From Lama guanicoe (taxonomy: Eukaryota), in contig MU053758.1 in assembly GCA_013239625.1 (NCBI GenBank), forward strand, positions 2,046,001 to 2,110,000: a DNA stretch of 64,000 nt, in the 5' to 3' direction. Positions 1 through 52,300 of the stretch are shown here, piece by piece; the first letter of the stretch is position 1; each line of letters opens with the position of its first letter. A program made the translations under genes and the position numbers. Under the pieces are notes generated by a model. That model did not search any database, was not told the origin of the DNA, and saw nothing but the letters and a program-made list of their open reading frames with translations.

Positions 1-260
1 AACAGAGGGCATCTAAACAGAGGGGAGGGAACCACCTAGGCCTCTGGGTGATGAGGTCGAGGGCTCGTGGAGGACTGTGGTCACAGAGGCCCCACACTGT
101 GCAATGTGGAAAGCCAGTCAGATGTCGAGAGTTGGGGGCTGGGGCAGGGGCTACTGAGCTCTGTGGCCCCGAGTGAAGGGGCCCAGGCCTAACTTCCCAT
201 GCTGCACCTCAGGCTGGCTCTTCTGAATTCTCAGATGCTTAAAACTGTAGCACCTTCAGA

Positions 261-352
261 GGGGAGGGTATAGCTCAGTGATAGAACACATGCTTGGCAT
301 GTACGAGGTCCTGGGTTCAATCCCCAGTACCTCCACTGAAAAAAAAAAAAAA
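261..352 (+). mobile_element. tRNA-Ala-derived SINE (Vic-1-like, camelid)
   Basis: GGGGAGGGTATAGCTCAGTG...GGGTTCAATCCCCAGTACCTCC plus poly-A. Confidence 0.85.
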
Positions 353-871
353 CCTACAGCATCCTCAGCGAAAGCTCCCCAACAGAGCAACAATTATGAT
401 TCGTATGGCTTGTCAATTCTAATCTAAAAACCCACACAGCAAGCAAAGAGCAGAGACCTCAGTTCCATTATGGCTTTGAACAGGCTCTAGGCCTGGATTG
501 GGTGTGAGAGACCATAAATCACAGGAGATGGCTGCACAGCCACTAAAGGGGCATGTGTGACACTTCTGGCCTTCTTCCTTTCCTCTGGGGACTCTTCTGA
601 TTTTACAAATCGGGGCGCAAGAGTAGAGGCCGTTCAGCAGGACAAGAGGGCCAGGGGAGTTCTGAGGTGCCAGGCCCTGGGGGTTAGGGACTCCACAGGC
701 ACCAACCAGTGCTAGATGTGCCCAGATGGAGATGATGAAGTCCCTCAGGTGGAAACAAGAGCCTGGCATGTGGCAGGTGAGGGATGAGATGGGGAGAGGC
801 AGGTACTGAGTGGCTGGAAAGACGCTGACACAGACGCAAACGGTGGAGCTGCGGCCCAGTTGTGCACTGAC

Positions 872-1032
872 CTCGAGGAAGAAGAGCGCAGCGTTGGAGG
901 TGGGGTGGCCGTTGATGTAGATCCCCGCCAGGATGATGGCTGCCACGAGGAAGACGGCCAACACGATGCCCACGATGGTGCCCAGATGCACAGGGGAGCC
1001 TTTTGTCTTGGGGGACAGGTTGTTCTGAAGGC
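872..1032 (-). CDS. PLXDC1: PLXDC1 exon 13 (transmembrane helix)
   Basis: (G)[62 protein letters not shown]; 161 nt. Confidence 0.95.
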
Positions 1033-1336
1033 CTGTGGGGAGACCGTTAGGTCAGGGTGCAGCTGCAGGGGAGCAGGGAGGGTGGGGCCATGGGGTCCTG
1101 GGTCTGACAAAGTCCCAGAGATGAAAGCCAACAGAACAACCAGGTCTACTTATCAAATCTATGAAAAGGTGGGGTGGGAGTGGGTGGAACCATTATGAGT
1201 GTGACAGTAACACTGTTCTTAGAGCATGTCAGACAGTTTTCCAAAATCACTTAAAAGTTACCCAAATGTCTAATGAGGATCATAAAATTTCTCTCCAATA
1301 ATTTTAAGGGATTTTAAGGAATTCACAAAGGGCATG

Positions 1337-3140: not shown

Positions 3141-3176
3141 CGTCTCCTCCTGCGTAGGGATTCAGCTTGGTGTCAT
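3141..3176 (-). CDS. PLXDC1: PLXDC1 exon 12
   Basis: (D)DTKLNPYAGGD; pyrimidine tract + AAG acceptor, GTGAGT donor; 36 nt. Confidence 0.92.
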
Positions 3177-3562
3177 CTTCAAAGAGAAAGGACAGAAGGC
3201 ACAAGATTAGTGGAATCATGATGGCCTTGGTCACTTTAGGTTTGGATGAAGCTTTAGGGATGTTCAGTCCAACCCTTCATTTTGAAGGTTAGGAAACTGA
3301 AGCACAGAGAGGGGAGGGGACTTAGTCAAAGTCACACAGCAGTGTAAAGGGAGAAGGTCACGGACAAGCCAACCTTCCCTAGTGTTCATTCATTCAACAA
3401 ATATGTACTGAGTGTTTACTATGAGTTGAGCACTGGGAGTAGATGCTGGGGACTCAAGGAGTTAACTGGTCGTGGCGGGGACAGAGGGGTAATTATAATC
3501 CAGCATAATGAAGCTCCAACAGGTGTCACCCAGATAAAGGGAGTCAAGAAGAAGGGATAAGG

Positions 3563-3650
3563 GTGGAGGATATAGCTCAGTGGTAGAGCGCCTGCCTAGT
3601 AAGCAGAGGTCCTGGGTTCAATCCCCAGTACCTCCATTAAAAAGAAAAAA
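3563..3650 (+). mobile_element. Vic-1-like SINE
   Basis: tRNA-Ala-like head, A-rich tail. Confidence 0.8.
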
Positions 3651-4189
3651 GTATACAGTGGTGTATATCAATTATATCCCAATAAAAGTGGAAGAAAACA
3701 ATGATTTAAAAAAAGGAGAAGTGAGATGTGGGACTGGGAACCCTGACAGAGGAAGGAGCCAGACAAAGGCCCAGAGTTAAAGGCAGACAAGGGTTCCATG
3801 TCAGGAGAGTGCTCTCCAGGATGACTGGAGGTGACTGCTTCAAGCAGCAAAACTTTAAACAAATGGAACCTTCCACAGTTTCTGTCTAGCAGCATGCACT
3901 TCATTCCCCTTCTCTTCCGGGACCTCTGCTGATCTCGTCGTTTTCAAGGCTTTTTCTGGCTTCTCTTTGTTCACAGATGTTCAAGGCCCTTCGCAGCTTG
4001 TCCCAATCTTCTTTTCTCCTGTCACTCGCCATGACTCAGCACTGTGACAAGCCACTGAAGGCTCTGCAGACCTTGGAGACCTCGCAGACCTCTGAGCCGC
4101 TGCATATACTGTTCCTCCTACAGGGGATGCCCTTCCTTTCCCTCACTGTTCCTTTTTCAGAAGTCCCACCTCTGAAATGCCCTCTGCAG

Positions 4190-4410
4190 GGATGAGGTTA
4201 GGAAGACACAGGTGAAACAGGGTCTGATCCTGTCTTTTATTAAAATTTTTGATATTTTGTTCATCATGGGGTTTTTGGCATTAATTTTCATTTTTGTAAA
4301 TATTGCATTAAAATATTATTTATCTTGATTATTGCCTTTTCTTTTTTGGTGCCTCCTTAAATTTTACCTGCATTGAGTGCCTCACTTGCCTCACCCTAGT
4401 CCTGGCCCTG
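4190..4410 (-). mobile_element. MER96B-like hAT DNA transposon
   Basis: Ends CTCACTTGCCTCACCCTAGTCCTGGCCCTG with AT-rich interior; related partial copy at ~44680-44830 in the opposite orientation. Confidence 0.6.
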
Positions 4411-5075
4411 GTTCTGTTGCTTCTGGGAGGGCAGATGGGTGGGTCCTCCACTGAGTCCCATTGCGTTTGGTATCTGTTTCTGCAACATCTTGGGTCTCAT
4501 TGTTCCCATAGACTGTGAGCCTCTCAACACCTAACCTCTTCACATCCCAGTGCCTGGACATGGCACCCTGCTCTGTTATACATTGCCAGTAAATCTTCAA
4601 ATATCAGAAAATCACATTAAATAATGGAGAAGAATAAGCCATAAGAAAATGTAAAAATGGTTCCCCATAGAGGAAGGAGGGAATAGGATGGAGGGGAGAA
4701 AACTAGAAACTAAACTTCTTTTAATATTCCTGCTTTTGTAGATTTGACTTTTGAACCATGTTAATTATCATTTAACTGTTACATAATTATAAAAAAGTTA
4801 AATTTAAAAAGCACCCCTAAAAATTCAAAGTGAAACAAAACAAATAGACTTGTAGGCATATAACAGAAAGACCTGTTTTCTTCAGGAATTTCAATACACA
4901 CGGTATTTATATATGCCTCTGAGTCTGTTTCATTACTACAACTTCAAAATGATGAATTGGTTCATCAAAACTGACTAAAGTAACCCTAAACATCATTAGA
5001 CAAATTAACTTTATTGGAATCAAATTGTTCTGAATCTAGACCATTGGAAATCCATTGTAGCCCAGTCTCCATCTA

Positions 5076-5625
5076 CCCTTGGCAGACAAAAGGACACCTA
5101 CAGCCAGTCCCTCCCACAAGGCGACTGAAGGTGACCACGCTGTGCCCACAGCAGCTTTCCTCCCACTCACTGATGGCTGGTTCCCAGCTGCCATCTTGTT
5201 AGGAGTCCACAGAATACAAACCATTCCCTAATGAATGGGGCTGTGGTAGAGTCCCATGGCAACTCACAGGGTGAAGAAATGCGAGCGATGTCTATTGAAT
5301 GAGTCGTCATTCTCTATAGTGAGGGGTCACTTCTTGCTGCTACCGATGTGTTCTGTTCAGCTGCTCATCAGATGAGCCCTTATATTGCTCAGTTATTCCA
5401 GGTCAGCGCCTGTCTGTCCTTATGATAAAATGCACAGGCTGCGTGGCAGCTGCTTGCCGCTCCAAGGTCATTTGGGTTCACTTAAGTGGGTAGCATTTAA
5501 TTGCAAGTGAACAGCTCTGAAACTCCAGCCCCCATACCTCCTGCCCCACTGGCCCTCTCTGCTAGGGGTCCACACACCCTCCAGCAGCCGCTCCCACTAA
5601 CTTCTCAGCTCTCCAACCCTGCCCT
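5076..5625 (+). repeat. Long inverted repeat, left arm (PLXDC1 intron 11)
   Basis: Reverse complement of 14658-15215; 5223-5586 is identical to revcomp 14697-15060 (364 bp) and 5124-5200 identical to revcomp 15084-15160 (77 bp) by manual alignment. Confidence 0.97.
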
Positions 5626-6229
5626 GCAGGTCCCTCTGGCTGTATCCCCTTCATCCACAACATCTTCCTGTACCACGAGATAAACTCTGCCTCCAGCAAG
5701 TCTCCCTGTGTGAGCTATAATCATACAGGCAGGGGATGACTCAAACCTGTCCTGCTAGACACCTCAAGAGATGGGGGTTGGGGAAGGTTCTTATCAAAAC
5801 TTTTTTTCTTACGCAGGTAATCTGACCATCTTTGCCACTTCCTCCAGGACTGGACGGGCATGGAGCCATAATTGTCCTCACTCTAATTAATGTGTTCTGA
5901 TGGGGACTATTACACAGCAAACAGAAGTGACACATTTCTGGGCTGACAGGAGACACACACATGATAAAACTGATGAACAGAATATGCTGCCTCTGTGTAG
6001 GGATGGCCCACCAAGACAGTAACGGGGAGAAAACGAATAATTCCAAGTCAGGTTTTGAATCTGGCCCCCATATGCCATGCTTTCTACACCCACCACAGCC
6101 ACCCTTCTGGTCTATATCCCTGTGGCTCACCCAGACATAAACCCCAAAGGAAAGGCTGGGTTCTGACTTAGGGGAGAGGTGTCTGCAGCCCCCAGCCCAG
6201 CCCTGGGCTCAGAATGTGCCCTGGGTAGC

Positions 6230-6338
6230 GGGGCATATAGCTCAGTGGTAGAGCACATGCTTAGCATGCATGAGGTCCGGGGTTCAATCCCCAGTATCCC
6301 CACCAAAAAAACACAAAAACAACAACAACCAAGAAAGA
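6230..6338 (+). mobile_element. Vic-1-like SINE or tRNA-Ala retrocopy with 19-bp TSD
   Basis: tRNA-Ala(AGC)-like head, A-rich tail; TSD AGAATGTGCCCT(GG/TA)GTAGC at 6211-6229 and 6339-6357. Confidence 0.85.
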
Positions 6339-7890
6339 AGAATGTGCCCTTAGTAGCACTTAGGGTTAACTCAGGGGCCACTGCCAGGGGTTTCTTCCTT
6401 TTAAGTGGAGTTTCCTTTAACCGGAAGGTCAGCTCTGGTCCCCACTATTAACTCCCTGAGGGTAAGGTCTCCTCCTGCTCTTTTTCATGTAATTTATTTA
6501 GTCCCCCACAGCACTGGCACAGACTCTGCTGTCAACCAGCACCTTAAGCAGCTCCTTGTGATTCCTGGACAACTCCAGAGTGATGGGAGCTGTCTGAATC
6601 TGCCTCATTTGTTCACCCTTCACTATTTTTTCCATCTGCTGAATCCACAAAGACCCTTTTCTATTTCTTTCAGCACTGAGAAAGGCAGTGAGGTCAAGGG
6701 GCAAGACTGCTGCTTTTGGAGCCAGAGGAAACCTCACTCCACCTCTTTCTGGCTGTGTGACCCTGGGCAAGCCATTAACCTCTCTGAGCCTTAGCATCTC
6801 CTCCATAAAGTGTGGATCCAGCAGGGTCAACAGATAGGATCTTTAGGAGGACCAGTGAGTATGTTTGCTCTTTCTTTGAACTGTTCACTTCCCTCCAGCC
6901 AGATTCAGGGTTCCTGCTCTGGGTCTCCAGTTCTCCAGGCTGCTTTTAGAAAGGCTGGGGGCACCATGGAAAGAACATTCCACCACTGAGTAACCTATTT
7001 TGCCCCTTATGAGGCCATTTCCTTTTCTCCAAAATGGGATTGTGGATTGTGGCTGAATAATGTTTTAAAATATTAACTTTCTTCTTCTCTCCTTTCCTCT
7101 TTTTAATTTGCCCCTTTCAAGCAGGTAAGTAGCCCAGGGGAGCTGGTAAGAGCCCACAGGTCTTTCAGTCTCAGACTTAGGGCAAGGGGGCCAAAACCTA
7201 GATGCCATCCATGTATTGAAGAAGGATGAGAGAGGAATTTCTCAGAGATAGACAAAGAATCCAAGGGGCCTGTACAGGCTTCCCACAGGGTGGCTGGACC
7301 TCCGGCAGCTTTGACAAGACCCCAGGCCTGGGGATGGCAGAGAAGGCAGGGGACAGCCAGGCCTGAAGAAGCAGAGATGGATCAGCAGCAACCGAAGGTG
7401 GCCAGAGCTGTCCCACCCCACCCTCTGCCCGCTCAACGTCACTGGAGCAGGGAGCCAAGCCCCCGGACATCGGGGTGGAACTCCCCACCATGCCAGCCTG
7501 GTGGGGGATGGAAGCCTGAAGGGAAGTGACAGAAAATGAGGCAATTTCTTTCACTCTCACATCTGAGTGTAGCTACAGGGATGGTAACACCTCACGGGTT
7601 CTCTGAGAATTGCTGTCAAGATGAACTGAGATGCTATGTAAAATGCCTGGCACTGTGCTGAGACATCAGTTTTTCTCTTTGCCACAGTAAGTTCTGTCCC
7701 CAAGCCCTGATGAGGGCATGGAGTCCATTCAGTCTAAACCCGGCTCTGCCTCTCATCAGCAAGTGACCTCTCCTCTTGGCGCCTCAGGTGTGAAAGGATG
7801 GAGCAGTCCTATTCCCTGAGGTCAGGGACAGGGATGCTCCAAGGTGGTGGCTCTTCTCATGGCTTCTCCCCCTCTCCCCCTCCCCCTTAC

Positions 7891-8026
7891 CTTCTGTGGT
7901 GAGGCTGTCGATGAAGAGGGAGGAGGAGGTGGTGGTGAGGTCTCCGTCAAAGGGGCTAGAGGAGCTGTCTGGGGAGGACGAGAACGAGTCCTCATCCTGG
8001 AAGTCTGCACACGTCTTGCCCTCTGC
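7891..8026 (-). CDS. PLXDC1: PLXDC1 exon 11 (acidic Ser/Thr-rich stalk)
   Basis: [54 protein letters not shown]; 136 nt; ends phase 1. Confidence 0.95.
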
Positions 8027-9191
8027 CTGCAAGAGAGACCCAGCGCTGCCCTGGACGGAGGCCTCGCCGGCAGCCACACCACACACAGGAGCACGGTGGG
8101 GGCACTTTCATCCCTCAGCAGCCAGAAGATTTAAGATTCTGGTGTGTGGTCCAAGGGTGGTAATCTAACCAAAGTGGGCCCTGAATGCATTTAAGCTTCC
8201 CACTTCATCCTGAAAGCGTCTTATCTTCCAGGGCAATTTATCTATCAGCTGCTTGGAATCCTTCCCAAAGGAAGCAGCTGAGATGCCAATCTTAAATATT
8301 TAAAGCAAATTTGTACATTCGCTAACAGCCAACGTAGAAGCGGGCTCCTGGACAAGTTTTTTGGTTTTGTTTTTTTGAAACAGACAGTTTACCCAGACTT
8401 ACTGATAAAAACAGGAGGTGGTGAACACACAGCAGTAATTCCGGGGGTTCACATTTAAATGTTGGGCCCAGCACTTTCATTACCTCCCCAGCTGTGAGAT
8501 GCTGGCCAACTCACTAAATCTCTCCGAGCCTCAGATTCCTGTTCTGATCAGCTGAGGCACCGACCCCCAGCTCCTGGGCCCATGTTAGGATTAAATCAGA
8601 GCAAGTGCAGAGCAGCATGCCATGTGCTTGCACTGCAAGAAGGGATGGAGAGAGGAAGAGAGGGGAAAAGGACAGATGGATGACTGTGTCTGTCTGTGTC
8701 AGTATAAGGTGTGAGAATATGATGCTCTCCACCCAAAGTATTGAGCATTCTGGAAAATTCCAGAAGTGAGAAGGAACCTGTATGGGATTCTAAGTGGAGG
8801 ATGTGGGAAACCACCCTCCTCGCTCCCAGAATGACAGCCTTCCTCAATGCTGGCGGGTTGGAGCTAGGTCAGTTGCTTTTTGAACATCACCAGGTGTACA
8901 GCCTCCCAGGAGATCCTGCTATGGCCAAGGCCACATCCGAGGTCCCCTCTGCAAGGACCAAAAGAGTCCCTGGGGAGCAAGACCAAGTCACCAAGAGAAG
9001 TACTTGTCCCAGGGACCCACCAAGCCCTCGAAAACCTCCCACGTTGGCCAACTCGGAGCAGATGGTGGGACCAGCCCCAGGCAGAGGGGAGAATTTCACC
9101 AAGAGCCAAAGACGCCTTGAGAAAAGCTACCAAGTGAGGGGCTACCAGCAGCCTGGCCCTTCCCCACTCCTGGCGCACTGAACCCTCTCAC

Positions 9192-9252
9192 CTCCTGGGC
9201 ACAGCCGTAGGCCAGCCACTCCTGGCGGTAGCGGTCAAAGCCACTGGAGCAT
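9192..9252 (-). CDS. PLXDC1: PLXDC1 exon 10 (PSI domain, C-terminal part)
   Basis: [29 protein letters not shown]; 61 nt. Confidence 0.95.
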
Positions 9253-11341
9253 CTGCAAGGGGAACCAAAAGGCCAGAGGTGTGATGGGTTGACAGAGAAG
9301 CCGTCCCCTCCATTTCCCCCCTTGCAGTAACAGTTCTCTGGTGATAGCAAAGAAGGGGCGAACCTCCCCAAGACCACTAGGCAGGTGCTCCGGCACCAAG
9401 GGGCTGTGGGATCAGGAGTCAGACCCTCCTGCCCCACCTCTACTCCTTCCCCCAAAGGAGGGGAAGCGATTTGTGGCATTCTTCCGAAGCCAGCTCCCCA
9501 GGACCAAGGCCACGTCTGCCCAGGTGTGTGTGTGTAGGGAGCTGACGGACTGCCTGACCTCTAATGACCTTTAAGACGCTCCCTGACTATGGGCAGCCTG
9601 AAATTGCTGAAAATCCAGGGAATTCACACCATGTTTTCATCTAGGTAAAGTCTTGCTCATTTGCCGAGCCCCACTTCTTGGTGGAGGAGCCTAAACTTGG
9701 CACAAGGAGAAGCAATGTGGAAGGTGGGCACCAGCTGATCTGGCCAGCACCTGCTGTGTGACCATTAAAGGGCAGTGAGGGTCTTGCCATAAACTGGAGG
9801 AGATTAAAGACTGGCTGACAAGGGTCCCCCGAGAGGATACTGCAAGGTCAGCTGGGCTGGAAGACGTCAAGTGCTTCCCTAGGGAAGAGGTGCAGGTGTA
9901 AGGATGAACCAGAGAATGTTCTCCACAGCATCATGCTCAACGCTCTGTTCTTCACTCTGTTGCCAGGAGATGCTATCAAGCCCTACTCAAGTGCAGGGAC
10001 GTCTGCATGGGAAGATAGTTTCACGAGCCACCAGTGCTGAAAAGGGAGCCGTGGCTGGTTAACTCTGCACCAGCAACTGCCCGCTCATCTTCCCAAGATC
10101 TGGTGAGGCTGAGGCTTCGAGGCACTGTCAGTCTTTCCTTCTGAAGATGTCCCTGAGCTGCTCCTCCTGCAGTGGGGACAACTGAACGGAACTGAGCTCT
10201 TCCTCTCAGGTCCTCTGTGCCCACTGCTTCAAGGGATGGAGGGTTAGGGGCACTGTTGGGGGATGGGAACTAAAATTTCTTTTAGGCCAAACAGAACTGG
10301 TTCTTTTAAGGATTGAGCCTTCAATGTGGTCTAAGAGCATTACATTCCAAGCCCCAGGCCAACCAACCCAGATGCGAAGGAGAAGGGCATGAGAAATGGC
10401 CATTGTCTGAGCACCTCTGGACGCCACGTGTGGCCCCAGTCACATGCTGCTCCTGAACTATCTCATGGGACTCCCAAAGACACTGCAAAGCAAAGGGATA
10501 GGACCCTCATTTTCTGAGCCAAATCCTGGAGTCAAGGTCACTTGCAGTCTCCGGAGTGGGCCACTGGGGGGCAACGTGGGGTGAGAGGAAGACTCCTGCA
10601 TGATAAATGAAGTAATCAAAATCAGCTCCGGCCCCATCACGGGGAAGCCGAGGACACACGCGGTGGTTGCCAGCAGCTGCTGGTGGGAGAGACCACGGTG
10701 GCCGGCCCACTGCAGCAGCCCTGACCTCTAGCTTTTTAGGAGGCTGGAGTCTGCTCTCGGTTGGAGCTGAGGAGATCTGTCTGGAAGGGGCCTGTGTTGG
10801 GTGAGCCCAGGCCCCCAGACATCCGGGGACAGGATACTCAGCACTGAGTCAGCCTTGCACACTCCCCAGTGGAGCTTCTCTGTTCCGGACCTGACATAAC
10901 CCAGCAAAGGCAGTGTCCACACCCAAGGCCCTGCCCTCCCCATGACCAACCCTCATTAAACTGTCAGGGTTTTCTGGGTTTGGGTGTATGCATTAAGTGG
11001 GGGGTGTATCAAGCCAGGGTTCTGCTTTCATCTGACCCACTTTGCAGTTCTCATGGCTCAGCTGTTGTTGGATGCTGAGTCACGTGGTGGCAGCCAGCCC
11101 AGCATTCCAGGGCTCATCTGAGGTCTTCTGGATTATCTCCCCACCCTCAGACAGTGGCTCTCAAACTTGAAAGTGCCCAAGATGGATCACACCACAAAGC
11201 TCCACGCCAGGAACAACCAAGCTGGGGTCTACCCCGTGTACTCTCTGAGGCTCAGCACCTTTTATGTGAAGGGCCCTAAACACTTTGCAAAAATACCATT
11301 TGGCATTTGAGGAGTTAAAATAACAGGCAAGGGTCAGGGAA

Positions 11342-11485
11342 GGGGGGTGGAGAAGGTAGAGTTCAGTGGTAGAGCTTCTACTTAGCATGCGTGAGGTCCT
11401 GGGTTCAATCCCCAGGACCTCCATTAAAAATAAATAAATAAACCTAATTACCTCTCCCCAAAGTAAAAAACAAATTAAAAATAAA
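11342..11485 (+). mobile_element. Vic-1-like SINE
   Basis: tRNA-like head, AAATAAACCTAATTACCTC tail, flanking AAAATAACAGGCA repeats. Confidence 0.8.
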
Positions 11486-12694
11486 ATAACAGGCACGTTT
11501 CAAAAAATAAAAAACAAAAAACAAAAAACAGGCATGTTCCTCATCCCCATCTCCTCGAATCACATAACCCCAGCCCATTTTACAGAGAAAGCAAACTGAG
11601 GCCCCAAGGAAGCCTGATGAGGGGCCCTTTCTCCTCCTGGCCCACAGCTCTGTCTTGTCTACTGGGCAGGCCTCCTGTAAAGGCAATAGTTTCTATTCCT
11701 GCGTCAGAATATTGGAAAGGTGCAAAAGGAACACTGACAGCTGCAGGATAGCTGCATAGAACTCGAGCCTCTGTAATTTGCAAGTGTCAAGATTATCTTA
11801 AAGGCTCTTGGAGTTTATAAGTCTTTCCACTGTCATGGGACCCCTAGTCCCCAAAGAAATTCTCTTTTTTTCTTTCTGCCATTTATTTATCTTGGACAGG
11901 AGAACAGGGCTCCGATTCTGAATCTAATCTATGAGGACATGATTTCAGAACAGGGAGTGGAAGAGGAGCTGAATTTAAGAAATTTATCCCTGAATCTGAA
12001 TCTCATCCAGAATTTTCCCTGCTTCCAAAACCAAGCAAACACAGCTTTGTAGTTTGCCCCAACTTTCCACAGACGCCTGCAGTTTCCACAACCTTGGGTT
12101 TTTAGGAAACCCTGCTGCAGCCTGACTGAGAAAGATCTTGAGGTGGTGTTCTGGGGTAGTGGGGCTCTGGCCCAGTGGCAGTGGGTCTTTGGATCATCCC
12201 CTGTCTCTGAGCCGGCAGATCTCATGCTTGTTTGTGGATGAGACACCATGTTAAAATGCAGGCTCGTGGGTTTCTCTCCCAGAGATCCTGATGCAGGGGG
12301 CTGGGCCCCAGGAATCTGTATGTTTAATGTGAGCCCGAGCTGATGCTGGGATGCTCCCAACTGTGGACCACTCTTTGGGAAGGCCGGCCCAAGGATGAGC
12401 CAACCCTTCCAGGTGTGAGGAGGGAGCTGCAGTAGCTGGAATTTCCAAATTGTCTTCCAGAAGTCTAGTGTCACCACAGGGTGAAACAAAGTCACCTCGA
12501 TCAGTCACAAGCCTCAGGGAGAAACTCACTTCTGTGATATTCTTGTCCTGAGCATCAGAGTAGCCCTAGCCAGAGATACCTTCATGTAGACAGTGAGGCC
12601 CGAGACAGGGAGCGAGGCCGTGCCACCTCTGCCCCACCCCTCGGCCCCTCGCACAGTCTGCCTGCGGGACCCAGAGGGCAGCCTGGGGACAAAC

Positions 12695-12776
12695 CTCTGG
12701 AGGACGTGGCACCAGCTGCAGTTGAAGGTCAGGTCTGAGGACATGCAGGCGTCACAGCTCCGATGCTGCAGGCAGG
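12695..12776 (-). CDS. PLXDC1: PLXDC1 exon 9 (PSI domain, N-terminal part)
   Basis: (T)[26 protein letters not shown](R); CAG/GTTTGT; 82 nt. Confidence 0.95.
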
Positions 12777-13256
12777 CTGCAAGAGAGAAGAAGGCAGCGG
12801 CCCCTCAGTGTCAGCCCCTCCACAGGCCTCCAGAAAGGTGCTACTTTCCTGAACGCTGGGCCCTTACAGAACTCGGGAGGCCCCGACCAGCAGGGACGGG
12901 ACCCTAGTGGTCATCAGTGCCACGCTCATTTGAGTCTGGCCCTGATTTCTCCAACTCTCCCTCTCCACCCTCCCTTTCTACCCTGTCCTTCCTTTCCTCC
13001 CTTCCTTTTGTCACCAGGAGGTCAGGCCCTGAGCTGGTGCTGGGGATTCAGCAGGAACACCTGGTACCTGCCTTCTTGGGCCTCACAGTCATATGGGGAG
13101 ACAGACACTAAACAGATAATCAAACAAAAATAAGTACATCATTAGCATGGTGATGAGGCATCTGAAGGAAAATTACAGGGCGCCGTAAGCACATTCAAAA
13201 GGATCTCACCTAGTCTGGGAAGTTATACTCCTGGGCCATTGCCTACAACTGCAGCG

Positions 13257-13506
13257 TTGGAAAAGATCTTCTTTTTTTTTAAGGTGAATGCAAGTTTATT
13301 TAGAGAGATACACACTCCATAGACAGAGTGCAGTCTGTCTTACTAGAAGGGAAAATGGCTTACGAGATACACACTCCATAGGCAGAATGTGGGCCATCTC
13401 GGAAAGGTGAGAGGGAGAGAGACTGAGACGTGTCGGGTGTTTAGTTTAAAGCAAAAGTAGATACACACTCCATAGGCAGAGTGCGGACTATTGGAAAGGA
13501 TCTTTT
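13257..13506 (-). mobile_element. L1-retrotransposed LTR-like 3' fragment with poly-A and TSD
   Basis: TSD TTGGAAA(A/G)GATCTT at 13257-13270 and 13491-13504; poly-T 13272-13280; AATAAA (minus strand) 13295-13300; TTTT/AA at 13503-13508. Confidence 0.7.
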
Positions 13507-14194
13507 AAAATTGAGATACATTTGACATATAACATCATGTGAATTTAAGATGTACCACATGTTGATTCTGATACATTTATAGTGCTGTGTGTATGATTGC
13601 CACATCATCGCTAGTTAATGCCTCCATCACTTCACATCATTATCACTTCTTCCAGGGTTGGGAACAATTAAGACTGAGTTTCACAGCAAGTTGAACGTTT
13701 GTATACAGTTGCATTGTCTCCAATCACTGAAAAGGACTTTTTAAGATGTCCTGATTTGACCTCCACTGAGTGCTGGCCAGGAGTGCTCAGTCCCCCTCCT
13801 GAGGACAGTCCATGTGGCAGGACTGCCTGCTCCTGGCCTCTCCAGCTCCTCTCGCCTCCTCCCAGGGAAGTCTGGGTGCTGAGTCTTCGAGGGTAAACCA
13901 GGTGTATGTGATTCTATTCCTTTCTTCTCTCTCTCCTCTTGGAAGTGAGCTCTTCCCCGGGGGTGTGCTGACCTCTCTGCTCATCCAGGCTTAAATCCCC
14001 CCTGGGAAGTGACCTGACCTCTTGGTGCCTCAGTACCTCACTTGTAAAAGAGGGATCAGGATGCTCTGCGGTGGACCTGCTGTGATGAGATACCTAGAGA
14101 GGGTTTATAACAGAGCCAGCCACACGGTGAGCCTACTGGATGCTACCTGTTATCAACTATTGTCCATTTGTTCCCCTCAATATACCTAGCAGGT

Positions 14195-14500
14195 GTTCAT
14201 TCACTCATTCATTCTTCCAACAAACATTTTTTGAGCGTCTCCCCTGATGCTGGAGATGCAGCGTGAACAGGGAAAGACAGAAGCACTGCCCGCATGGGGC
14301 CCACACGCGAGTGGAGGAGACGGCCAACAAGTACACAGACAAATTAATCTACACGAGGGTTCCCAGTGGTGAGAAGGGCTGGGAGAAAAGTAGAGCAGAA
14401 CAGGAAAGTGGCTGACGGTGAGGGGGGTGTCTTATTCAGGGAGGTTGGGAAGGCAGGGACTAAGAGAAGGGAGGAAGCCAGCCGGGCAGCTCTCCTGCAG
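14195..14500 (-). mobile_element. L2 LINE 3' remnant
   Basis: CATTCACTCATTCATTC...CAAACATTTTTTGAGCG 3' end signature. Confidence 0.6.
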
Positions 14501-14657
14501 GAGAAGTCCAAGCAGAAGGACCCCTGCATGGAGAGGCCCGGGAAGGGCACGACCGAGGGATGCTCCCAACAGCAGCCAGAACGCTAATGGGCAGGGCACA
14601 ATGGAGAAGTGGAAGGTAGTAGGCATGGGGAGGAGCGGCAGCTGGGGTCTAGCAGGG

Positions 14658-15215
14658 AGGGCAGAGTCAGAGAGCAGAAAAGTTAGTGGGAGCGGTTGCT
14701 GGAGGGTGTGTGGACCCCTAGCAGAGAGGGCCAGTGGGGCAGGAGGTATGGGGGCTGGAGTTTCAGAGCTGTTCACTTGCAATTAAATGCTACCCACTTA
14801 AGTGAACCCAAATGACCTTGGAGCGGCAAGCAGCTGCCACGCAGCCTGTGCATTTTATCATAAGGACAGACAGGCGCTGACCTGGAATAACTGAGCAATA
14901 TAAGGGCTCATCTGATGAGCAGCTGAACAGAACACATCGGTAGCAGCAAGAAGTGACCCCTCACTATAGAGAATGACGACTCATTCAATAGACATCGCTC
15001 GCATTTCTTCACCCTGTGAGTTGCCATGGGACTCTACCACAGCCCCATTCATTAGGGAATCGGTTTGCATTCCATGGACCTCCAACAAGATGGCAGCTGG
15101 GAACCAGCCATCAGTGAGTGGGAGGAAAGCTGCTGTGGGCACAGCGTGGTCACCTTCAGTTGCCTTGTGGGAGGAACTGGCTGTAGGTGGCACTGTGTCC
15201 TTTTGTCTACCAGGG
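14658..15215 (-). repeat. Long inverted repeat, right arm (PLXDC1 intron 8)
   Basis: Partner of 5076-5625; also visible as identical peptides in ORFs 5501..5683(+) and 14432..14782(-). Confidence 0.97.
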
Positions 15216-17012
15216 CTTTGCAGGCTTTGGAAGGGTGGATGGAAAGCCATCTGCAAGAAATAAGCAGGGACTGGCCCGGCTGGAGAATGAAGAGTTCTGG
15301 CTGTTTTGTTCTCTGGTGCATCCAGAGAGTCTAGAGTAGCGCCCAGCAAGTGGCAGGCAGTTAACAGAATCGATGTATAGTTGCTTTTGTCATCCTCATT
15401 TGACAGAGGAGGAAACTGAGGCTTGGAGAGAGTCCCTGAGCTAAGAGTGGCAGGTCTGGGTTTGGACTAATCTGTCTAAGCCAAGAGCCTGAGTTCTTAG
15501 CCTCAAGATCCCACTGTGGGTTCTACCTCTACCCTAGGCCACCTTTTCACGAGTCTCTTTGAGAAGAGGGACCAGCCAAGAAGTGTGATGGCTTAAAGAT
15601 AGTGCATCCACATCTCTGGAAGAATTTCGGCCAAGTATTCCCCTACCCAAAGGTAAGGGAGAAAGCCTGGGGCTGTAAGATGCAGAGTTTTCTGAGGACA
15701 AAGCTCACCGGCCTCCCAGGAGCTGAGATCACAGCCTTGACAGCACTGCCCCCTTCCCCACATGGGAGCCCCTGACCTGGTCATTCCCAGTGACTCTGGA
15801 GGCCCCTTAAATGACTCCAGTTAAGCTGAAAAAAAACCCTGGGAGCCTCGTGGGGTATTCATAAAACCCACTAACCTTTATTTCTCATCTGCATTTCAGA
15901 TGTCCTGAGTGCTATTAAATGCTCACAAAATTCACTGGAGGAGTGGGAAGTGGCTTAAATGTACAGACAGTGTCCCAGAAATGCGCTCCCAGGATGTTTC
16001 ACTTCTTCCACCCGGGCAGTTAGCCCTGCCCTTGGATGTCCTTGTTCCTAAATGCAGCTTATTCATTCCTGGGACTGAAGGTTGCTCTCACCAGTCCTTG
16101 AGGAAGCCCTTCCTAGAGGGAGAGCAGCTGCAGCGGGGCTGGGGCTGTGACTGCAGAGGTCCTGGCCCTATGACTACGTGTCTGGGATGGTCCTCTTTTC
16201 CAGGGGAGGACACCTGCTGGGACACGGCCTAGCCTTTGAGAAGACCCTTCCTTTCTTCCTCTTCTTTTTTCTCCACCTCCAGTTCCCAGAACCTCCAGGG
16301 ACGAGGAAGCTGGGAGGTGCCATGAAACAGGAGAGAAAATTGAAATTGAAACTCTCTTTAAAAATACAGAAATGGGAGTGCTGTCCTTCCCCTCACCCTC
16401 CCCAGCTGCCCTGGCCACATCCTGAAGAGCATCCCACCCCGATCCCGTGGGGTCCACAGCCCCAGCTGGGGCCTCGGAAACGGTATGTCTTCAACTGCAG
16501 ATGAGTGGGGTGCAGAAGAGGGAAGGGACCCAGCCCCCTGGCTGCTGGCTAAATCCCTTTACTGCCTTCTGCCTAGGGATACCAGCACCACCTCTCCCCT
16601 AAGGAAAACACAATGATGAACTTATGGATCAGTTCAGTTCCTGGATTTTCTTTTCTGGGAGCTCAGGCTAAGTTCCCAGAGGTACCTCTTTCATGGGTTT
16701 CAATTACGTATTAATAACAACAGCTGTCACGTATCAAGCACAAACCACGCCTCAGACCTGCGATGGGCCAACTGGTGTCAGAGCTGCCATTTACATCCTC
16801 ATTTCTACTGCCTGAGGCTGTAACCCTTACTGTAGCCCTAGGAGGGAGGTGGTGTTGGGCCTATGTTACAAATGAGAAAGGGGGCCCCAGAGAAGTTAGG
16901 TGGCCATTCCTAGACAGGGGTCAGCAGAGGGCCTACGAATGGAACTCAGTGTGACACCAAAGCCCTTTCCAGGACAGCGGAATGCCTCCTCCCATCAGAA
17001 GAACAACCCCTA

Positions 17013-17225
<213 letters not shown>

Positions 17226-43905: not shown

Positions 43906-43993
43906 TTTTTTTTTTTTTTAATAGAGGCACTGGGGATTGAACCCAGGACCTCCTGCATGCCAGGCACACACTCTACCACTGAGCTATGCCCTC
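43906..43993 (-). mobile_element. Vic-1-like SINE (short)
   Basis: Poly-T then reverse-complement tRNA-Ala-like head. Confidence 0.8.
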
Positions 43994-45171
43994 CGCGCCA
44001 CATGGCCTCTTGTGTGGCTGCAGAGCGGGCGTAGAGCCCCTGGGATGGTAGGAGTAGTGTGGTCAAGCCTAAGAAAGCCTCACTGTCTGGTGATAGATTT
44101 GAAAGACCAATTTTTTTGTTTCCTTTTTTTTCCGTTTTTTTAGGTAAATGATTTTAAAACTGGCTTAAAATGTTACAGCTCAGAAGTTCCCATGTGGAGA
44201 TAACCAGCAGGATCCCATGGAGGAACTTGTAAAGAAACAAATCCCCAGGCCCTACCTCCAGTGTTTCTGAACCAGTCAGTCCAGGGTGGAGCTTGAGAAT
44301 GTGTGTTGTTTTTTAAGCTCTGAGGTTACTGAATCCACACTGGCTCTCGATGATCCCCACTGCCCTTTCTGAACACCCACGGGCAATTGCTTCCAGAAGT
44401 CCACATCTCTGTGGCTGTCTTCTGCAGGGTCCTCTCTGCAGGAACGGGGCTACGGCCCTCTGACCAGGGTGTCTGGCCCAAAGCAAATATCAGTTCTTTA
44501 ACTGATGGCTCAACAAAGCTGGGGGCTGGGGAAGGGGTGAGGCTCCAGGTGCTCCCTTACTTGGGGTACCTCTCTTGCTCTGGCCTTCCGTTCCATCATC
44601 CCCTAGGGCTCCTTGGTTCTGCAGGGTGGAGAAGCTAGGGCAGAATGGGCATTGAATGGGGCTGCGTTCTCTAAGGTTCCACCTCAGCGCCAGGATCAGT
44701 GTATAATATTTGAAGTGGCACCAATAAACTCAGTCATCAAGAGAATGTTTTAATGTCCTAGATTTTTAAATCAAAATGCACGCACAAAAATCCATGGCGA
44801 ACAAAATTTTAAATAAAGACAGGATCGGTAATGGTGCCAAGCCATGTCAGGGGCCTGAGGTAAAAGAAAAAATAAGTCACAGAAATGATGCAGAAAGAGA
44901 GTTCAGAGCCTGTATCACCCTGCTCCCTCCCTGCCAGGCTGCAGGCTGACCCTGGTCCCTCTCCCACCCACATTGCTACAGCTCTTGTCCAGAAGTCCCT
45001 CCTGCAGAAGCAGTCACAGCTCTTGCTGGTTTGGGTAACACCCTCCCTGCCGGCTCAGGCTCACCTGTAGAGGTCTGAGCTGCTCCATGCTGCAGCTTTT
45101 CTTAAAGTGCTTCCCCTTCCCCACCCTGCCTACTCCTGTCCTTCCCATATATAATGTCCCTGCATTAAACT

Positions 45172-46309: not shown

Positions 46310-46462
46310 AGGTTTCGAGTACAGCTCAGTGGTAGAGCACATGCTTAGCAGGCAGGAGGTCCTGGGCTCAATCCTCAGTACCTCCACTTAAAAAACAAAG
46401 AAATCTAATTACCCCCTCCAACAAAAATTAATTTAAAATAATAAAATGAACTTTTTTAAAAA
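46310..46462 (+). mobile_element. Vic-1-like SINE
   Basis: AGCTCAGTGGTAGAGCACATGCTTAGCA head, CTAATTACC tail, GACAGGTTT flanking repeats. Confidence 0.8.
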
Positions 46463-49275: not shown

Positions 49276-49361
49276 GGGGAGGGAAATAGCTCCATGGAAG
49301 AGTGCATGCTTAGCATGCATGAGGTCCTAGGTTCAATCCCCAGTACCTCCATTAAAAAAAA
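49276..49361 (+). mobile_element. Vic-1-like SINE (short)
   Basis: GGGGAGGGAAATAGCTC...GGTTCAATCCCCAGTACCTCCATTAAAA. Confidence 0.8.
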
Positions 49362-52300
49362 CAATTCTGAGAAAAGGTTGTCAGATAAATTAACAATGCC
49401 TGGGGGAGATCAGTTAGCAATGTCTGTCCCAGCACAGGATGGGAGAGTGTTCCTCACTTAGATGGCCTCTCCAGTTCCCTGTAGGTTGTCAAAGTTTTTT
49501 CTAAATGACACAGAAACCATGCTTTTCCGTTTCAGAAAGATTTATTCCCCCAAAGATAAGTCTTACACCGTCTCTCCAGTTGCCACACCTGCTATGGACG
49601 TGTATGTGGGACACAGATCACCAGATGGGTGGATCTGATAGTCCCTGTGATCTTCATTCATTTCAGGCCTGCTCTGCGTCAGATGCCCTTTTCCACCTCT
49701 GCCTGCCCCACCCACTCCCCAGAGCTCCTGGCTGTAGCCCTCTCTCCTAGAGCATCCGCTAGCAATCTAAGTATATGTCCATCTCCCTGGTAGACTTGAG
49801 ATCCCCCAGGACTCTCCCACCTTCTGCAGATGTGTATCCTCGGGCCCTGGCAAACAGTAGGTGCTCAATCACTGCATAATTGAGACCACGATACTGGAGG
49901 TAACTTGGGAGCCAGCAAGGATAGAGGCTGAGACAAGCCTTGGCCAGGACCAGGCCTGGGGCTGAGGCCAGGACTCCTTGCTGTGGGGCTCTGGTTTGTC
50001 ATTAGACATTTTATCCAATTAAGTCATTCTTGGCTGCTGGTGGCTGCTGGACCCTTGCCGGCCCCCCTTTTCACTTCTCTGCCCCTAATCGCAACCAGAT
50101 GCTCTGGAGAAGATGAGGAGACGGTGGTCTCCCGACCCCTTCCCCAAGATGCCCACTGGCTGAGATGGACCTGAGCCTGGTGCTGGGAAGGCAGCCTGCC
50201 CGTGGCCCAGATCCCAAGCCAGGGCTATCTTGCCTATCTCGGGTGAGGCCTATAGCTGCCTCTGGAGACAGAACTGTTTGTGCTGGGCTTGTCTCCCCAG
50301 CTCCCTGGGTCCTCCTGCAAGCAGCCCTCAGGCCTGGGCAGAAGCCAGAACAGGAAAGGAGTGTGTGCAGAGCAAGTGGAGGAACTCAGCTGGCCCGGAA
50401 AGGGATGCTGGGGATTTACAGGCATCACCGTCCTGCAACGGAGACGGGAGGGTGCCTGGATGGAACAGGTCCCAGCCAGAGATGAGATCAGGGAAGGCAC
50501 ACCTGCCACCCACAAGCTGTGTGACCTTGGACCCATGAGTTTACCTCACTAAGCCTCAGTTTCCTCATCACTAGAATGGGGGTGACAATCATGCCAATGG
50601 CACAGGCCACCCTGAGCATCAGGTAAAAAACCTACACAAAAGAGTTTTATAAATAGGGAAGCTCTGGGCCAGGAGCAGAGGCAAAGAGTTTAGGAAAGAG
50701 AGAGGGGCAAGGGACAGAGAGGGAGGTCACCAAGGACCCTGCCCTACCCCAGCCTAACCCCGAATCTTGCCCGCCCCACTCACACCACATCTGTCTCCCT
50801 GATGCCCCGCCCACTCCCAGTTGGCTGGGACTGGACATCACCCCCGCAGCCTGCAGAAGCAGCCAACACAGCTGGTTGCTCACGTGCATGTGTAGGGACC
50901 CATGTGCACACACACAGCTTGTCCTGGAGGCCTGGGCCCTCCTCCTGTGGGCTCACACACGTTACACACACGTTACCTATCCAACCTGAGGCCACCCCCT
51001 GCTCGACCCTCTGCCTTGCATTAGAGAGTTCCCTCTTGCCATGCCTCTGCATGTGGGTGCACCTGCCTGTGAGTGATGGCAAGCAGCTTCCAGAATACAT
51101 GCAATTCATATATTCATCCACTCAACCGCCCGTGGCCCCAAGTAGCATGCAGTCTGGTGGGACGTCAGGATAGTCAGAATAATAATAAAAATAATAGCTA
51201 ACTTTTAGAGAATGCTGACTCTGTGCTGGCAGTATTCCAAGTGCCCTAAAGTCATTAACTCACTTAATTCCCACAATCACCCCATGAAAGAGGTGCTAGT
51301 TTTTAGACGTGTTATCAACAGGGCAGCTGAGGCACAAGGACATTAAGGAATCTCCCCCAGGTCATACAACGAGTCCATGACAGAATGTGCACTCAGGCAG
51401 GCTGGCTTCAGGCTCTGCTCAGACCACAGAAAGTACAAGCAGAGGAGACGGGCAAAGGCAGGCTGTTCCCTGAGGTGCAGCGGCAGCCCCAGGGCCGGAT
51501 GTTTGAAGCTGCCCTGGCAGACTGTACCCCGCCCCGGGATGCGAGGGGATGGCCCAGTGGTAGTGCCCCAACCCTCTTCACGTGCCACTGTCTGATCCAG
51601 GGCAAAAAGCAACGGGCTGACATAGGAGGCCTGGTCATGCCACCTCCGTGCCTGGGCCAAGCCACCTTCATCCTACCCATCACCTGAGTTTGCCAGTCCA
51701 GCCCCGTGGCCATGGCTCAGTCCCGGCCACCACTGCCTCTTTCCTGATGGCTACTTCAGCTTCCACCCTTAATGCCCTTGGGCTAGTCTCCCACATGCCT
51801 GCCAGAGCATTTTGTCCAGAGGACAAACTTCATTTTATCTCCCTCATGCTTCCCTCTCACCATGACTCCTGGGCTAAAAGCCCAGCTCCTCCATTCAGCA
51901 CCTGAGGCCTTTTGTGACCAGATCCCTGCTGGCTTCTCCAGCCTCCTGTCTCCCTAAAGCTGTCTCCAGGACCATAAATAAATCGCTCTCCTGATGAACT
52001 CCTGTGCATCCTTCAAGTCACATAAGATGTCACTTCTTCCCAGAGTCTCCTCTGACATTCTCCCCTGCCCCCTAAATGCTACCTGCGCAGTCTCAGCCCT
52101 GATGCCAACACAGCAATGCACCCTGTGCAACCACAGGCTCAGATGCCTGATGCAGAGCAAATGCTCATCAAGCAGATGGAAGGACAGAAGGCAGGCACCT
52201 TTAAATGTCTTGAGTATCTGAGACCCACAGGCCTGAGAAGATCCTTCCCTTGGGGCACAGCCTCACCAGAAACCCTCACTGAAGTGTCACACAATAAAAG

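What the first reader, a model, noticed from the sequence alone, without database searches (positions are those of the whole stretch)
5076..15215. ~550-bp intronic inverted repeat with a 364-bp perfect core brackets PLXDC1 exons 9-11
Seen: 5076-5625 is the reverse complement of 14658-15215, with a 9032-bp spacer. 5223-5586 matches 14697-15060 with no mismatches. The arms lack the poly-A, TSD and recognisable SINE/LINE/LTR hallmarks seen elsewhere in the window, although the inner edge of the right arm lies near L2-like sequence. Each arm lies near the middle of its intron (intron 8, 12777-17017; intron 11, 3177-7890), about 1.8-2.3 kb from the flanking splice sites. Inference: the PLXDC1 pre-mRNA can fold into a ~0.5-kb near-perfect duplex that loops out exons 9-11, a candidate dedicated long-range RNA-structure element rather than an incidental pair of inverted SINEs.
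Basis: partly seen in the sequence, partly recalled or inferred. Interest (0 to 1): 0.88.

Follow-up and report, generated by a model that had tools for sequence, protein, structure and literature searches.

The report
Non-transposon inverted repeat bracketing PLXDC1 exons
Two oppositely oriented copies of a 550-base stretch of unique DNA sit in the introns on either side of three PLXDC1 exons in a camelid genome; this layout is known to favour circular RNAs and exon skipping, but nothing here shows that it was selected for that purpose.

Summary
Window 5077-5625 is the reverse complement of 14658-15215: 533 of 558 columns identical, a 9032-bp spacer, and a perfect 364-bp core at 5223-5586 = 14697-15060. 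The arms are the only two copies found in the 2.05-Gb genome. They have no TSD, terminal inverted repeat or poly-A and no Rfam match.

The gene is PLXDC1 on the minus strand. The arms lie mid-intron in introns 8 and 11. Exons 9-11 total 279 nt, are in frame, and encode the PSI domain plus a linker.

All 18 differences lie at the arm edges. No random placement in 200000 trials gave a 364-bp clean run. The best reading is an old, locus-specific inverted duplication that arm-to-arm gene conversion has partly homogenised.

In the pre-mRNA the arms can form a duplex of about 544 bp (-1165 kcal/mol). This is the only reverse-complementary match among introns 7-12. By analogy it should favour back-splicing, exon skipping and ADAR editing.

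The claim of a "dedicated RNA element" is therefore untested. I file it as a new member of a known kind, of modest interest.

The parts
5077..5625 (.). Left arm of the inverted repeat, in PLXDC1 intron 11 (the 3' arm in the pre-mRNA)
   Evidence: one of only two genomic copies
14658..15215 (.). Right arm of the inverted repeat, in PLXDC1 intron 8 (the 5' arm in the pre-mRNA)
   Evidence: 96% identical to the left arm genome-wide
5223..5586 (.). Perfect 364-bp core, left copy; candidate gene-conversion tract
   Evidence: no difference in columns 155-518; 0 of 200000 random placements of the differences reach a 364-bp run
14697..15060 (.). Perfect 364-bp core, right copy
5124..5200 (.). Second perfect run (77 bp) inside the otherwise diverged outer part of the arm
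12695..12776 (-). PLXDC1 exon 9 (82 nt), first half of the PSI domain; AG acceptor at 12777-12778, GT donor at 12693-12694
9192..9252 (-). PLXDC1 exon 10 (61 nt), second half of the PSI domain
7891..8026 (-). PLXDC1 exon 11 (136 nt), acidic and Ser-rich linker; GT donor at 7889-7890
17018..17113 (-). PLXDC1 exon 8 (96 nt); its donor starts intron 8
3141..3176 (-). PLXDC1 exon 12 (36 nt); its acceptor ends intron 11

Best explanation
This is a locus-specific inverted segmental duplication of about 550 bp of unique, non-transposon intronic DNA within PLXDC1 of a camelid. One copy lies in intron 8 and the other in intron 11.

Origin (inferred): it arose once at the DNA level, most simply by a replication template switch or break repair that copied a nearby segment in reverse orientation. 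Judged by the 7-15% divergence at the arm edges, this happened tens of millions of years ago.

Later history: the middle of the two copies has since been homogenised by arm-to-arm (non-crossover) gene conversion, leaving perfect tracts of 364 bp and 77 bp between diverged ends.

Consequence: both arms are transcribed in the same pre-mRNA, so they can pair into a duplex of about 544 bp that loops out exons 9-11 (279 nt, in frame, PSI domain plus linker). By analogy with known intronic reverse-complementary matches, I expect ADAR hyper-editing of the arms, some back-splicing of exon 11 to exon 9 (a 279-nt circular RNA), and some exon 8-to-12 skipping that deletes the PSI domain in frame. I regard these as by-products of the DNA structure, not as a selected function.

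Shown here: the repeat, its copy number, its non-transposon nature, the mosaic identity, the exon structure and the pairing potential. Inferred: the mechanism of origin, the gene conversion, the age, and every RNA-level consequence.
For: - Two copies only in 2.05 Gb; 2 candidates, both scored; 18 candidates, all scored, and only the other arm matches the arm.
- The same tool finds 71-80% identical old repeats at 4300-4425 and 4668-4850 and the SINE at 6227-6320 (828 candidates, 40 scored). A multi-copy family would therefore have been seen.
- No TSD, TIR or A/T run longer than 4. No Rfam family in the arms.
- All 16 mismatches and both indels lie in 5077-5223 and 5587-5625. With 18 differences placed at random on 551 columns, the longest clean run averages 101 and reached at most 323 in 200000 trials; the analytic bound for 364 or more is 7e-8.
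- The PSI domain falls on residues 303-347 of P0018, which map to exons 9 and 10. The gene is PLXDC1, with best hits in Camelus at 96-98%.
- Predicted duplex: -1165.3 kcal/mol with 544 intermolecular pairs, against -171 and -189 kcal/mol for each arm folded alone.
- It is the only reverse-complementary match at E <= 1e-3 within or between introns 7-12, apart from one 26-nt match.
- Literature: gene conversion holds inverted-repeat arms near identity while inversions stay rare (PMC3723533, abstract read). [quoted passage not shown] Complementary sequences may be non-repetitive, and ADAR1 edits such regions (PMC8391333, passages read).
Against: - No outgroup or population data exist here, so conversion is inferred from the mosaic pattern alone. 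Strong purifying selection on both copies of the core would give the same picture, as would a second, more recent copying of the core.
- The perfect core could be partly an assembly effect, if near-identical repeat copies were collapsed into one consensus.
- No RNA evidence of any kind supports a duplex, editing, a circular RNA or skipping.
- Intron 8 may often be spliced out before the downstream arm, about 9.6 kb later, is transcribed. The duplex might then rarely form (reasoning from the layout, not tested).
- The age estimate rests on 16 substitutions and on recalled mammalian substitution rates.
Confidence: 0.62

Rival explanations
1. The inverted repeat is a selected cis-regulatory RNA element. 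The duplex is kept because it controls production of a PLXDC1 exon 9-11 circular RNA, or of a PSI-less in-frame isoform.
For: - The duplex is very stable and has no competitor among introns 7-12.
- The enclosed exons form an exact in-frame cassette of 279 nt that holds the whole PSI domain.
- The arms sit mid-intron, clear of the splice sites.
- Reverse-complementary matches are functionally required for some circular RNAs and skipped isoforms (PMC8330042, abstract read).
Against: - There is no RNA evidence and no orthologue evidence.
- Far shorter complementarity is said to suffice for circularisation (30-40 nt, recalled; 13 nt in zip-2 per the PMC8330042 abstract). A 364-bp perfect core is therefore not what selection on pairing would require, but it is what gene conversion produces.
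- An in-frame total has a chance of about one in three.
- A search for PLXDC1 with circRNA found 13 papers holding both words, none with PLXDC1 in its title (listing only).
Confidence: 0.08
2. Assembly artefact: one arm, or the perfect identity of the core, was created by the assembler and is not present in the animal's DNA.
For: - The assembly is fragmented (55231 contigs), as short-read graph assemblies are. Such assemblies can reuse one consensus for both copies of a near-identical repeat.
- No reads could be laid.
Against: - The arms differ by 16 substitutions and two indels clustered at both ends. A falsely duplicated segment would be identical throughout.
- The window has no N, so neither arm abuts a gap.
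- Each arm is embedded in about 2 kb of unique intron on both sides.
- 14 DNA runs under 5 organism labels and at least 5 studies hold 0.91-0.95 of the sampled words of 5001-15000. This does not separate the arms.
Confidence: 0.05
3. No gene conversion: the mosaic arose in two steps. Either an old, short duplication had a recent copy of the core pasted over it, or the core is a strongly constrained DNA element, such as an intronic enhancer, that is conserved independently in both copies.
For: - The core reads like unique regulatory-type sequence rather than a repeat.
- CpG observed/expected is slightly higher in the core (0.30) than in intron 11 (0.15) or intron 8 (0.24).
Against: - Independent conservation of 364 of 364 positions in two paralogous copies would need ultraconservation in both.
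- A second copying event that lands exactly in register inside the first is, in effect, a conversion event.
- No CTCF-type motif was found in the arms at up to 1 mismatch to a consensus typed from recall; two sites with 2 mismatches lie in the right arm only.
Confidence: 0.12
4. The arms are two copies of a very low-copy or very old mobile element that the search could not recognise.
For: - The own-genome search skips very common words and scores only the best candidates (tool text).
- No Dfam or RepeatMasker library was available.
Against: - Only 2 candidates existed for the arm query, and both are the arms.
- Repeats of 71-80% identity are found by the same tool.
- There is no TSD, TIR or poly-A.
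- Two old copies of one element would not be 100% identical over 364 bp.
Confidence: 0.05

Closest known systems
Mouse Sry: long locus-specific inverted repeats flanking the exon that is circularised
   Same: Non-transposon, locus-specific inverted duplicates lie on both sides of the exon(s). The precursor is described as forming a stem-loop that brings donor and acceptor together (PMC4288412, passages read).
   Different: The Sry repeats are far longer (over 15 kb by recall, not from a call) and flank a single exon of a single-exon gene. Circular Sry RNA has been observed. Here the arms are 0.55 kb, lie within introns of a 14-exon gene, and no circular RNA has been seen.
Intronic reverse-complementary matches / complementary sequences that promote back-splicing and exon skipping (IRAlu pairs, MIR pairs at ciRS-7, non-repetitive matches)
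   Same: Complementary sequences lie in the two introns flanking the looped exons. Canonical splice sites are present and no within-intron competitor exists. The literature states that such matches may be repetitive or non-repetitive (PMC8391333, passages) and can drive both circular and skipped products (PMC8330042, abstract). MIR-mediated ciRS-7 is known to me from the PMC7371899 listing abstract only.
   Different: Most described cases are transposon-derived and 30-300 nt long with mismatches. This pair is single-locus, 550 nt, with a perfect 364-nt core. The defining output, a back-splice junction, was not testable here.
Palindromic segmental duplications kept alike by arm-to-arm gene conversion (human Y and X palindromes)
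   Same: Inverted duplicates in cis show tracts of identity attributed to gene conversion. Crossover between the arms would invert the spacer and is rare (PMC3723533, abstract read; PMC8981503 and PMC8600007, listing abstracts only).
   Different: Those arms are tens of kilobases to megabases long, over 99% identical throughout, and carry genes. Here the arms are 0.55 kb, non-coding and autosomal-gene intronic, and only the middle is homogenised. An inversion here would break PLXDC1.
Earlier findings of this scan in other genomes (e1-7512444, e1-7590123)
   Same: Near-perfect 0.58-kb and 0.88-kb intronic inverted repeats bracket 3 and 5 exons. The follow-up agents read them as the circular-RNA / exon-skipping layout without expression evidence.
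   Different: They concern other genes and other organisms. They are unchecked AI notes and I did not test them.

Membership tests
Intronic reverse-complementary matches flanking circularised or skipped exons | Reverse-complementary sequences located in the intron upstream and the intron downstream of the exon block | tested here: met
   Arms lie in intron 8 (14658-15215) and intron 11 (5077-5625); exons 9-11 lie between them
Intronic reverse-complementary matches flanking circularised or skipped exons | Cross-intron pairing is not outcompeted by pairing within a single intron | tested here: met
   Among introns 7-12 the only opposite-strand matches at E <= 1e-3 are this pair and a 26-nt intron 9 / intron 10 match
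Intronic reverse-complementary matches flanking circularised or skipped exons | Canonical acceptor before the first looped exon and canonical donor after the last | tested here: met
   AG before exon 9 and GT after exon 11
Intronic reverse-complementary matches flanking circularised or skipped exons | An observed back-splice junction (exon 11 to exon 9) or a skipped junction (exon 8 to exon 12) in RNA | not testable with these tools
Transposon-derived inverted repeat pair (inverted SINEs, LTRs or DNA-transposon ends) | Membership of a multi-copy family in the same genome | tested here: not met
   Two copies only, while neighbouring old repeats and SINEs give tens to hundreds of candidates
Transposon-derived inverted repeat pair (inverted SINEs, LTRs or DNA-transposon ends) | Insertion hallmarks: target-site duplication, poly-A tail or terminal inverted repeats | tested here: not met
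   No shared word of 6 nt or more in the 40-nt flanks, no TIR, and the longest A or T run is 4
Inverted segmental duplication homogenised by gene conversion | Two copies in cis in inverted orientation, with identity tracts far longer than a random spread of the differences allows | tested here: met
   A 364-bp and a 77-bp perfect run; 0 of 200000 permutations reach 364
Inverted segmental duplication homogenised by gene conversion | Phylogenetic or population evidence that variants moved from one arm to the other | not testable with these tools
   No orthologous or population sequences could be reached (searches found nothing usable)
ADAR-edited long intramolecular dsRNA | Clustered A-to-G differences between RNA reads and the genome in the arms | not testable with these tools
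   No reads could be laid

The most novel reading that the evidence does not exclude
A camelid-lineage inverted duplication of unique intronic DNA has been recruited as a splicing switch. Kept pairing-competent by recurrent gene conversion, it loops out the exact in-frame PSI-domain cassette of PLXDC1 (exons 9-11, 279 nt). The result would be a lineage-specific circular RNA and/or a PSI-less receptor isoform. The same arms would also make the gene prone to recurrent inversion alleles that knock it out.
Probability: 0.08. Interest if true: 0.55.

Novelty: new member of a known kind. Interest (0 to 1): 0.3.

Why it matters
If the duplex forms in vivo, this would be a clean natural test case. It is a non-transposon, single-locus pair with no competing complementary sequence in the neighbouring introns, so any exon 9-11 circular RNA, PSI-less isoform or editing cluster in camelid PLXDC1 could be attributed to it directly.

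At the DNA level it illustrates gene conversion acting on very short (0.55 kb) inverted duplicates. It also predicts rare inversion alleles that would disrupt PLXDC1.

As it stands, it is an ordinary structural feature of a known class without functional evidence.

Tried and rejected
- **Laying reads.** The cap is 1, so there is no read-level test of the arms, of back-splicing or of editing. I did not resend.
- **Sequencing runs.** The look-up of sequencing runs listed 14 DNA runs holding 0.91-0.95 of the words and RNA runs holding 0.27-0.28, 0.14 and less. None was laid, and the words do not separate the two arms. They are no evidence for expression of the duplex or for presence of both arms.
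- **Orthologues.** A 23-nt core word gave 0 hits in metagenome contigs. A 45-aa exon query was too short for the search for related loci. A 199-aa part of P0049 gave one locus, L003, at 47% identity over a PSI-like stretch, which is not an orthologue. The genome search holds no relatives of this genome.
- **Junction ORF.** A chance ORF spanning the right arm / flank junction gave 68 candidates and none significant. Non-coding ORFs seem not to be in that collection.
- **Earlier findings.** Searches by place (near) and by sequence returned nothing.
- **Rfam.** Nothing in the arms. The hits elsewhere are tRNA-like SINEs and sub-threshold matches.
- **CTCF.** A CTCF-type motif recalled from memory had no site at 1 mismatch or fewer. 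I dropped the idea of a convergent CTCF pair.
- **Edge mismatches as an editing footprint.** 15 of the 16 mismatches are transitions, but they run in both directions. Rejected.
- **Literature.** PLXDC1 with circRNA gave 13 papers, none about a PLXDC1 circular RNA by title (listing only). Two searches for camelid circRNA work returned tea-plant papers and unrelated camelid papers.
- **Large transposon with long terminal repeats.** Rejected because the spacer carries conserved PLXDC1 exons in the correct order and orientation.
Full report
**Observation.**
- The repeat finder reports arms 5218-5625 / 14658-15065 (408 nt, 98% complementary, 9032 nt apart) and 5085-5222 / 15062-15199 (138 nt, 91%).
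- Gapped BLASTN and a Smith-Waterman alignment with 300-nt flanks merge these into one alignment, 5077-5625 against the reverse complement of 15215-14658. It has 533 of 558 columns identical, 16 mismatches, an 8-bp indel and a 1-bp indel.
- The perfect core is exactly 5223-5586 = 14697-15060, 364 bp.
- The window holds no N.
- By eye, homology may continue about 14 bp beyond the outer edge across a 19-bp insertion in the right arm. The local alignment did not extend over it.

**Gene context.**
- A 54-aa exon translation (872-1033, minus strand) finds plexin domain-containing protein 1 in 147 proteins at E <= 0.001. The best hits are Camelus dromedarius (98%) and Camelus ferus (96%). The gene is PLXDC1 in a camelid, which agrees with earlier notes on this genome.
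- tblastn of a 500-aa PLXDC1 (P0018) onto the window places 13 coding exons on the minus strand.
- Reading the splice sites gives exon 8 at 17018-17113, exon 9 at 12695-12776 (82 nt), exon 10 at 9192-9252 (61 nt), exon 11 at 7891-8026 (136 nt) and exon 12 at 3141-3176 (36 nt). All have AG/GT boundaries.
The arms lie 1802, 1881, 2265 and 1900 nt from the four splice sites.
- Exons 9-11 total 279 nt, so skipping them keeps the reading frame.
- Pfam places the PSI domain at residues 303-347 of P0018. These map to exons 9 and 10. Exon 11 encodes an acidic, serine-rich linker.

**What the arms are.** They are not a recognisable mobile element.
- A search of the animal's own 2.05-Gb assembly with the left arm found two candidates, the arms themselves.
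- A 2-kb query around the right arm produced 18 candidates, all scored. Only the left arm matches the arm.
- The tool is sensitive enough. The same kind of query finds old repeats of 71-80% identity at 4300-4425 and 4668-4850, a tRNA-derived SINE at 6227-6320 with 828 candidates, and a short repeat at 15376-15435.
- The inner flank of the left arm, 5626-6200, is unique.
- Neither arm has a target-site duplication, terminal inverted repeats or an A/T run longer than 4.
- Rfam has no match in the arms.

**The mosaic pattern.**
- All differences lie at the ends. There are 10 mismatches and both indels in 5077-5223, and 6 mismatches in 5587-5625. Perfect runs of 77 bp (5124-5200) and 364 bp lie between.
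- When 18 difference events are placed at random on 551 columns, the longest clean run averages 101 and never exceeded 323 in 200000 trials. An analytic bound for 364 or more is 7e-8.
- The two copies therefore have at least two histories: old edges and a young or homogenised middle. The standard explanation for inverted duplicates in cis is non-crossover gene conversion, as in the sex-chromosome palindromes, where conversion is frequent and inversion rare (PMC3723533, abstract read).
- Edge divergence is 16 of 185 sites (8.6%), or 16 of 108 (15%) if the 77-bp run is also treated as converted. With mammalian substitution rates recalled from memory (about 1-2.2e-9 per site per year), this puts the original duplication at very roughly 20-80 million years. 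This is an inference from few sites.
- I cannot tell which arm is the parent.
- Origin by replication template switching or break repair is inferred from the short distance and inverted orientation only.

**Artefact check.**
- A falsely duplicated segment would be identical along its whole length. It would not be diverged at both ends with two indels. Neither arm touches a gap.
- What could be artefactual is the perfection of the core, because graph assemblers can give both copies of a near-identical repeat one consensus.
- Fourteen DNA runs under five organism labels hold 0.91-0.95 of the sampled words of 5001-15000. Read-level confirmation is therefore missing.

**RNA-level potential.**
- Both arms are transcribed within the PLXDC1 pre-mRNA.
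- ViennaRNA predicts a bimolecular structure of -1165.3 kcal/mol with 544 intermolecular pairs, against -171 and -189 kcal/mol for the arms folded alone.
- Among introns 7-12 this is the only opposite-strand match at E <= 1e-3, other than one 26-nt match between introns 9 and 10. The duplex has no competitor.
- This is the layout known to favour back-splicing and exon skipping:
  - Reverse-complementary matches are required for both products in zip-2 (PMC8330042, abstract read).
  - Complementary sequences may be Alu-type or non-repetitive, and ADAR1 edits such regions and counteracts circularisation (PMC8391333, passages read).
  - The classic locus-specific case is mouse Sry (PMC4288412, passages read).
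- The expected outputs here are ADAR editing of the arms, a 279-nt exon 9-11 circular RNA, and an in-frame exon 8-to-12 isoform lacking the PSI domain.
- None of these was observed. The downstream arm is made about 9.6 kb after the upstream one, so intron 8 may often be removed first.

**Verdict on the interpretation.**
- The claim that this is a dedicated RNA-structure element rather than an incidental repeat is not supported by anything I could measure.
- 'Not a SINE pair' does not make it dedicated. The perfect core is what DNA-level conversion produces, and it is much more than circularisation needs.
- Similar non-transposon intronic inverted repeats around exon blocks have been noted in two other genomes of this scan (unchecked). 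The class is not unique to this locus.
- I rate it as a new member of a known kind, interest 0.3.
- The boldest reading not excluded is a camelid-specific splicing switch for the PSI cassette, maintained by conversion. I give it about 8%.

**What led nowhere.** These are listed under Tried and rejected:
- two metagenome scans and one failed query;
- a junction-ORF protein search;
- Rfam;
- a CTCF motif scan;
- literature searches for a PLXDC1 or camelid circular RNA.

Noticed in passing
window 260-353, 6227-6320, 11348-11441, 46311-46404, 49276-49369 (+); 43906-44006 (inverted): A tRNA-derived SINE family. Five direct copies are 74-100% alike to the reference copy, and there are inverted partners around 43.6-44.0 kb. 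Rfam scores 3566-3636 and 6231-6302 as tRNA, and 11343-11426 gives a sub-threshold tmRNA match in the same clan. The family has hundreds of candidates in the genome. The inverted SINE pairs span 2-43 kb and could pair across other PLXDC1 introns.
   Followed up: partly
window 3141-3176 (-): Exon 12 is a 36-nt micro-exon encoding 12 residues. These residues are absent from the pig PLXDC1 sequence P0019 but present in P0018, P0049 and P0033. This suggests alternative use of the exon.
   Followed up: no
window 707-1033 (-): The Camelus ferus model P0003 (532 aa) matches 109 residues continuously from the transmembrane exon into what other PLXDC1 proteins treat as intron. The cause is either a read-through gene model or an alternative terminal exon.
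   Followed up: no
window 5077-5625 vs 14658-15215: 15 of the 16 mismatches between the arms are transitions, running in both directions. One is at a CpG, at 5122-5123.
   Followed up: partly
window 15216-15243: Just outside the right arm there is a 19-bp stretch with an internal 'CAAAGCC' duplication. Beyond it, about 13 nt again resemble the left arm's outer flank at 5066-5079. The original duplication may have been slightly longer.
   Followed up: partly
window 4300-4425 and 4668-4850; 15376-15435: Old interspersed repeats of 71-86% identity to many genomic copies lie 0.2-0.8 kb outside the left arm. A short repeated fragment of 31-53 nt lies 0.16 kb outside the right arm. The families were not identified.
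   Followed up: no
L003 10001-10069: A 408-kb metagenome contig encodes a stretch 47% identical to the PSI part of PLXDC1. It is probably a PSI domain of an unrelated eukaryotic gene.
   Followed up: no
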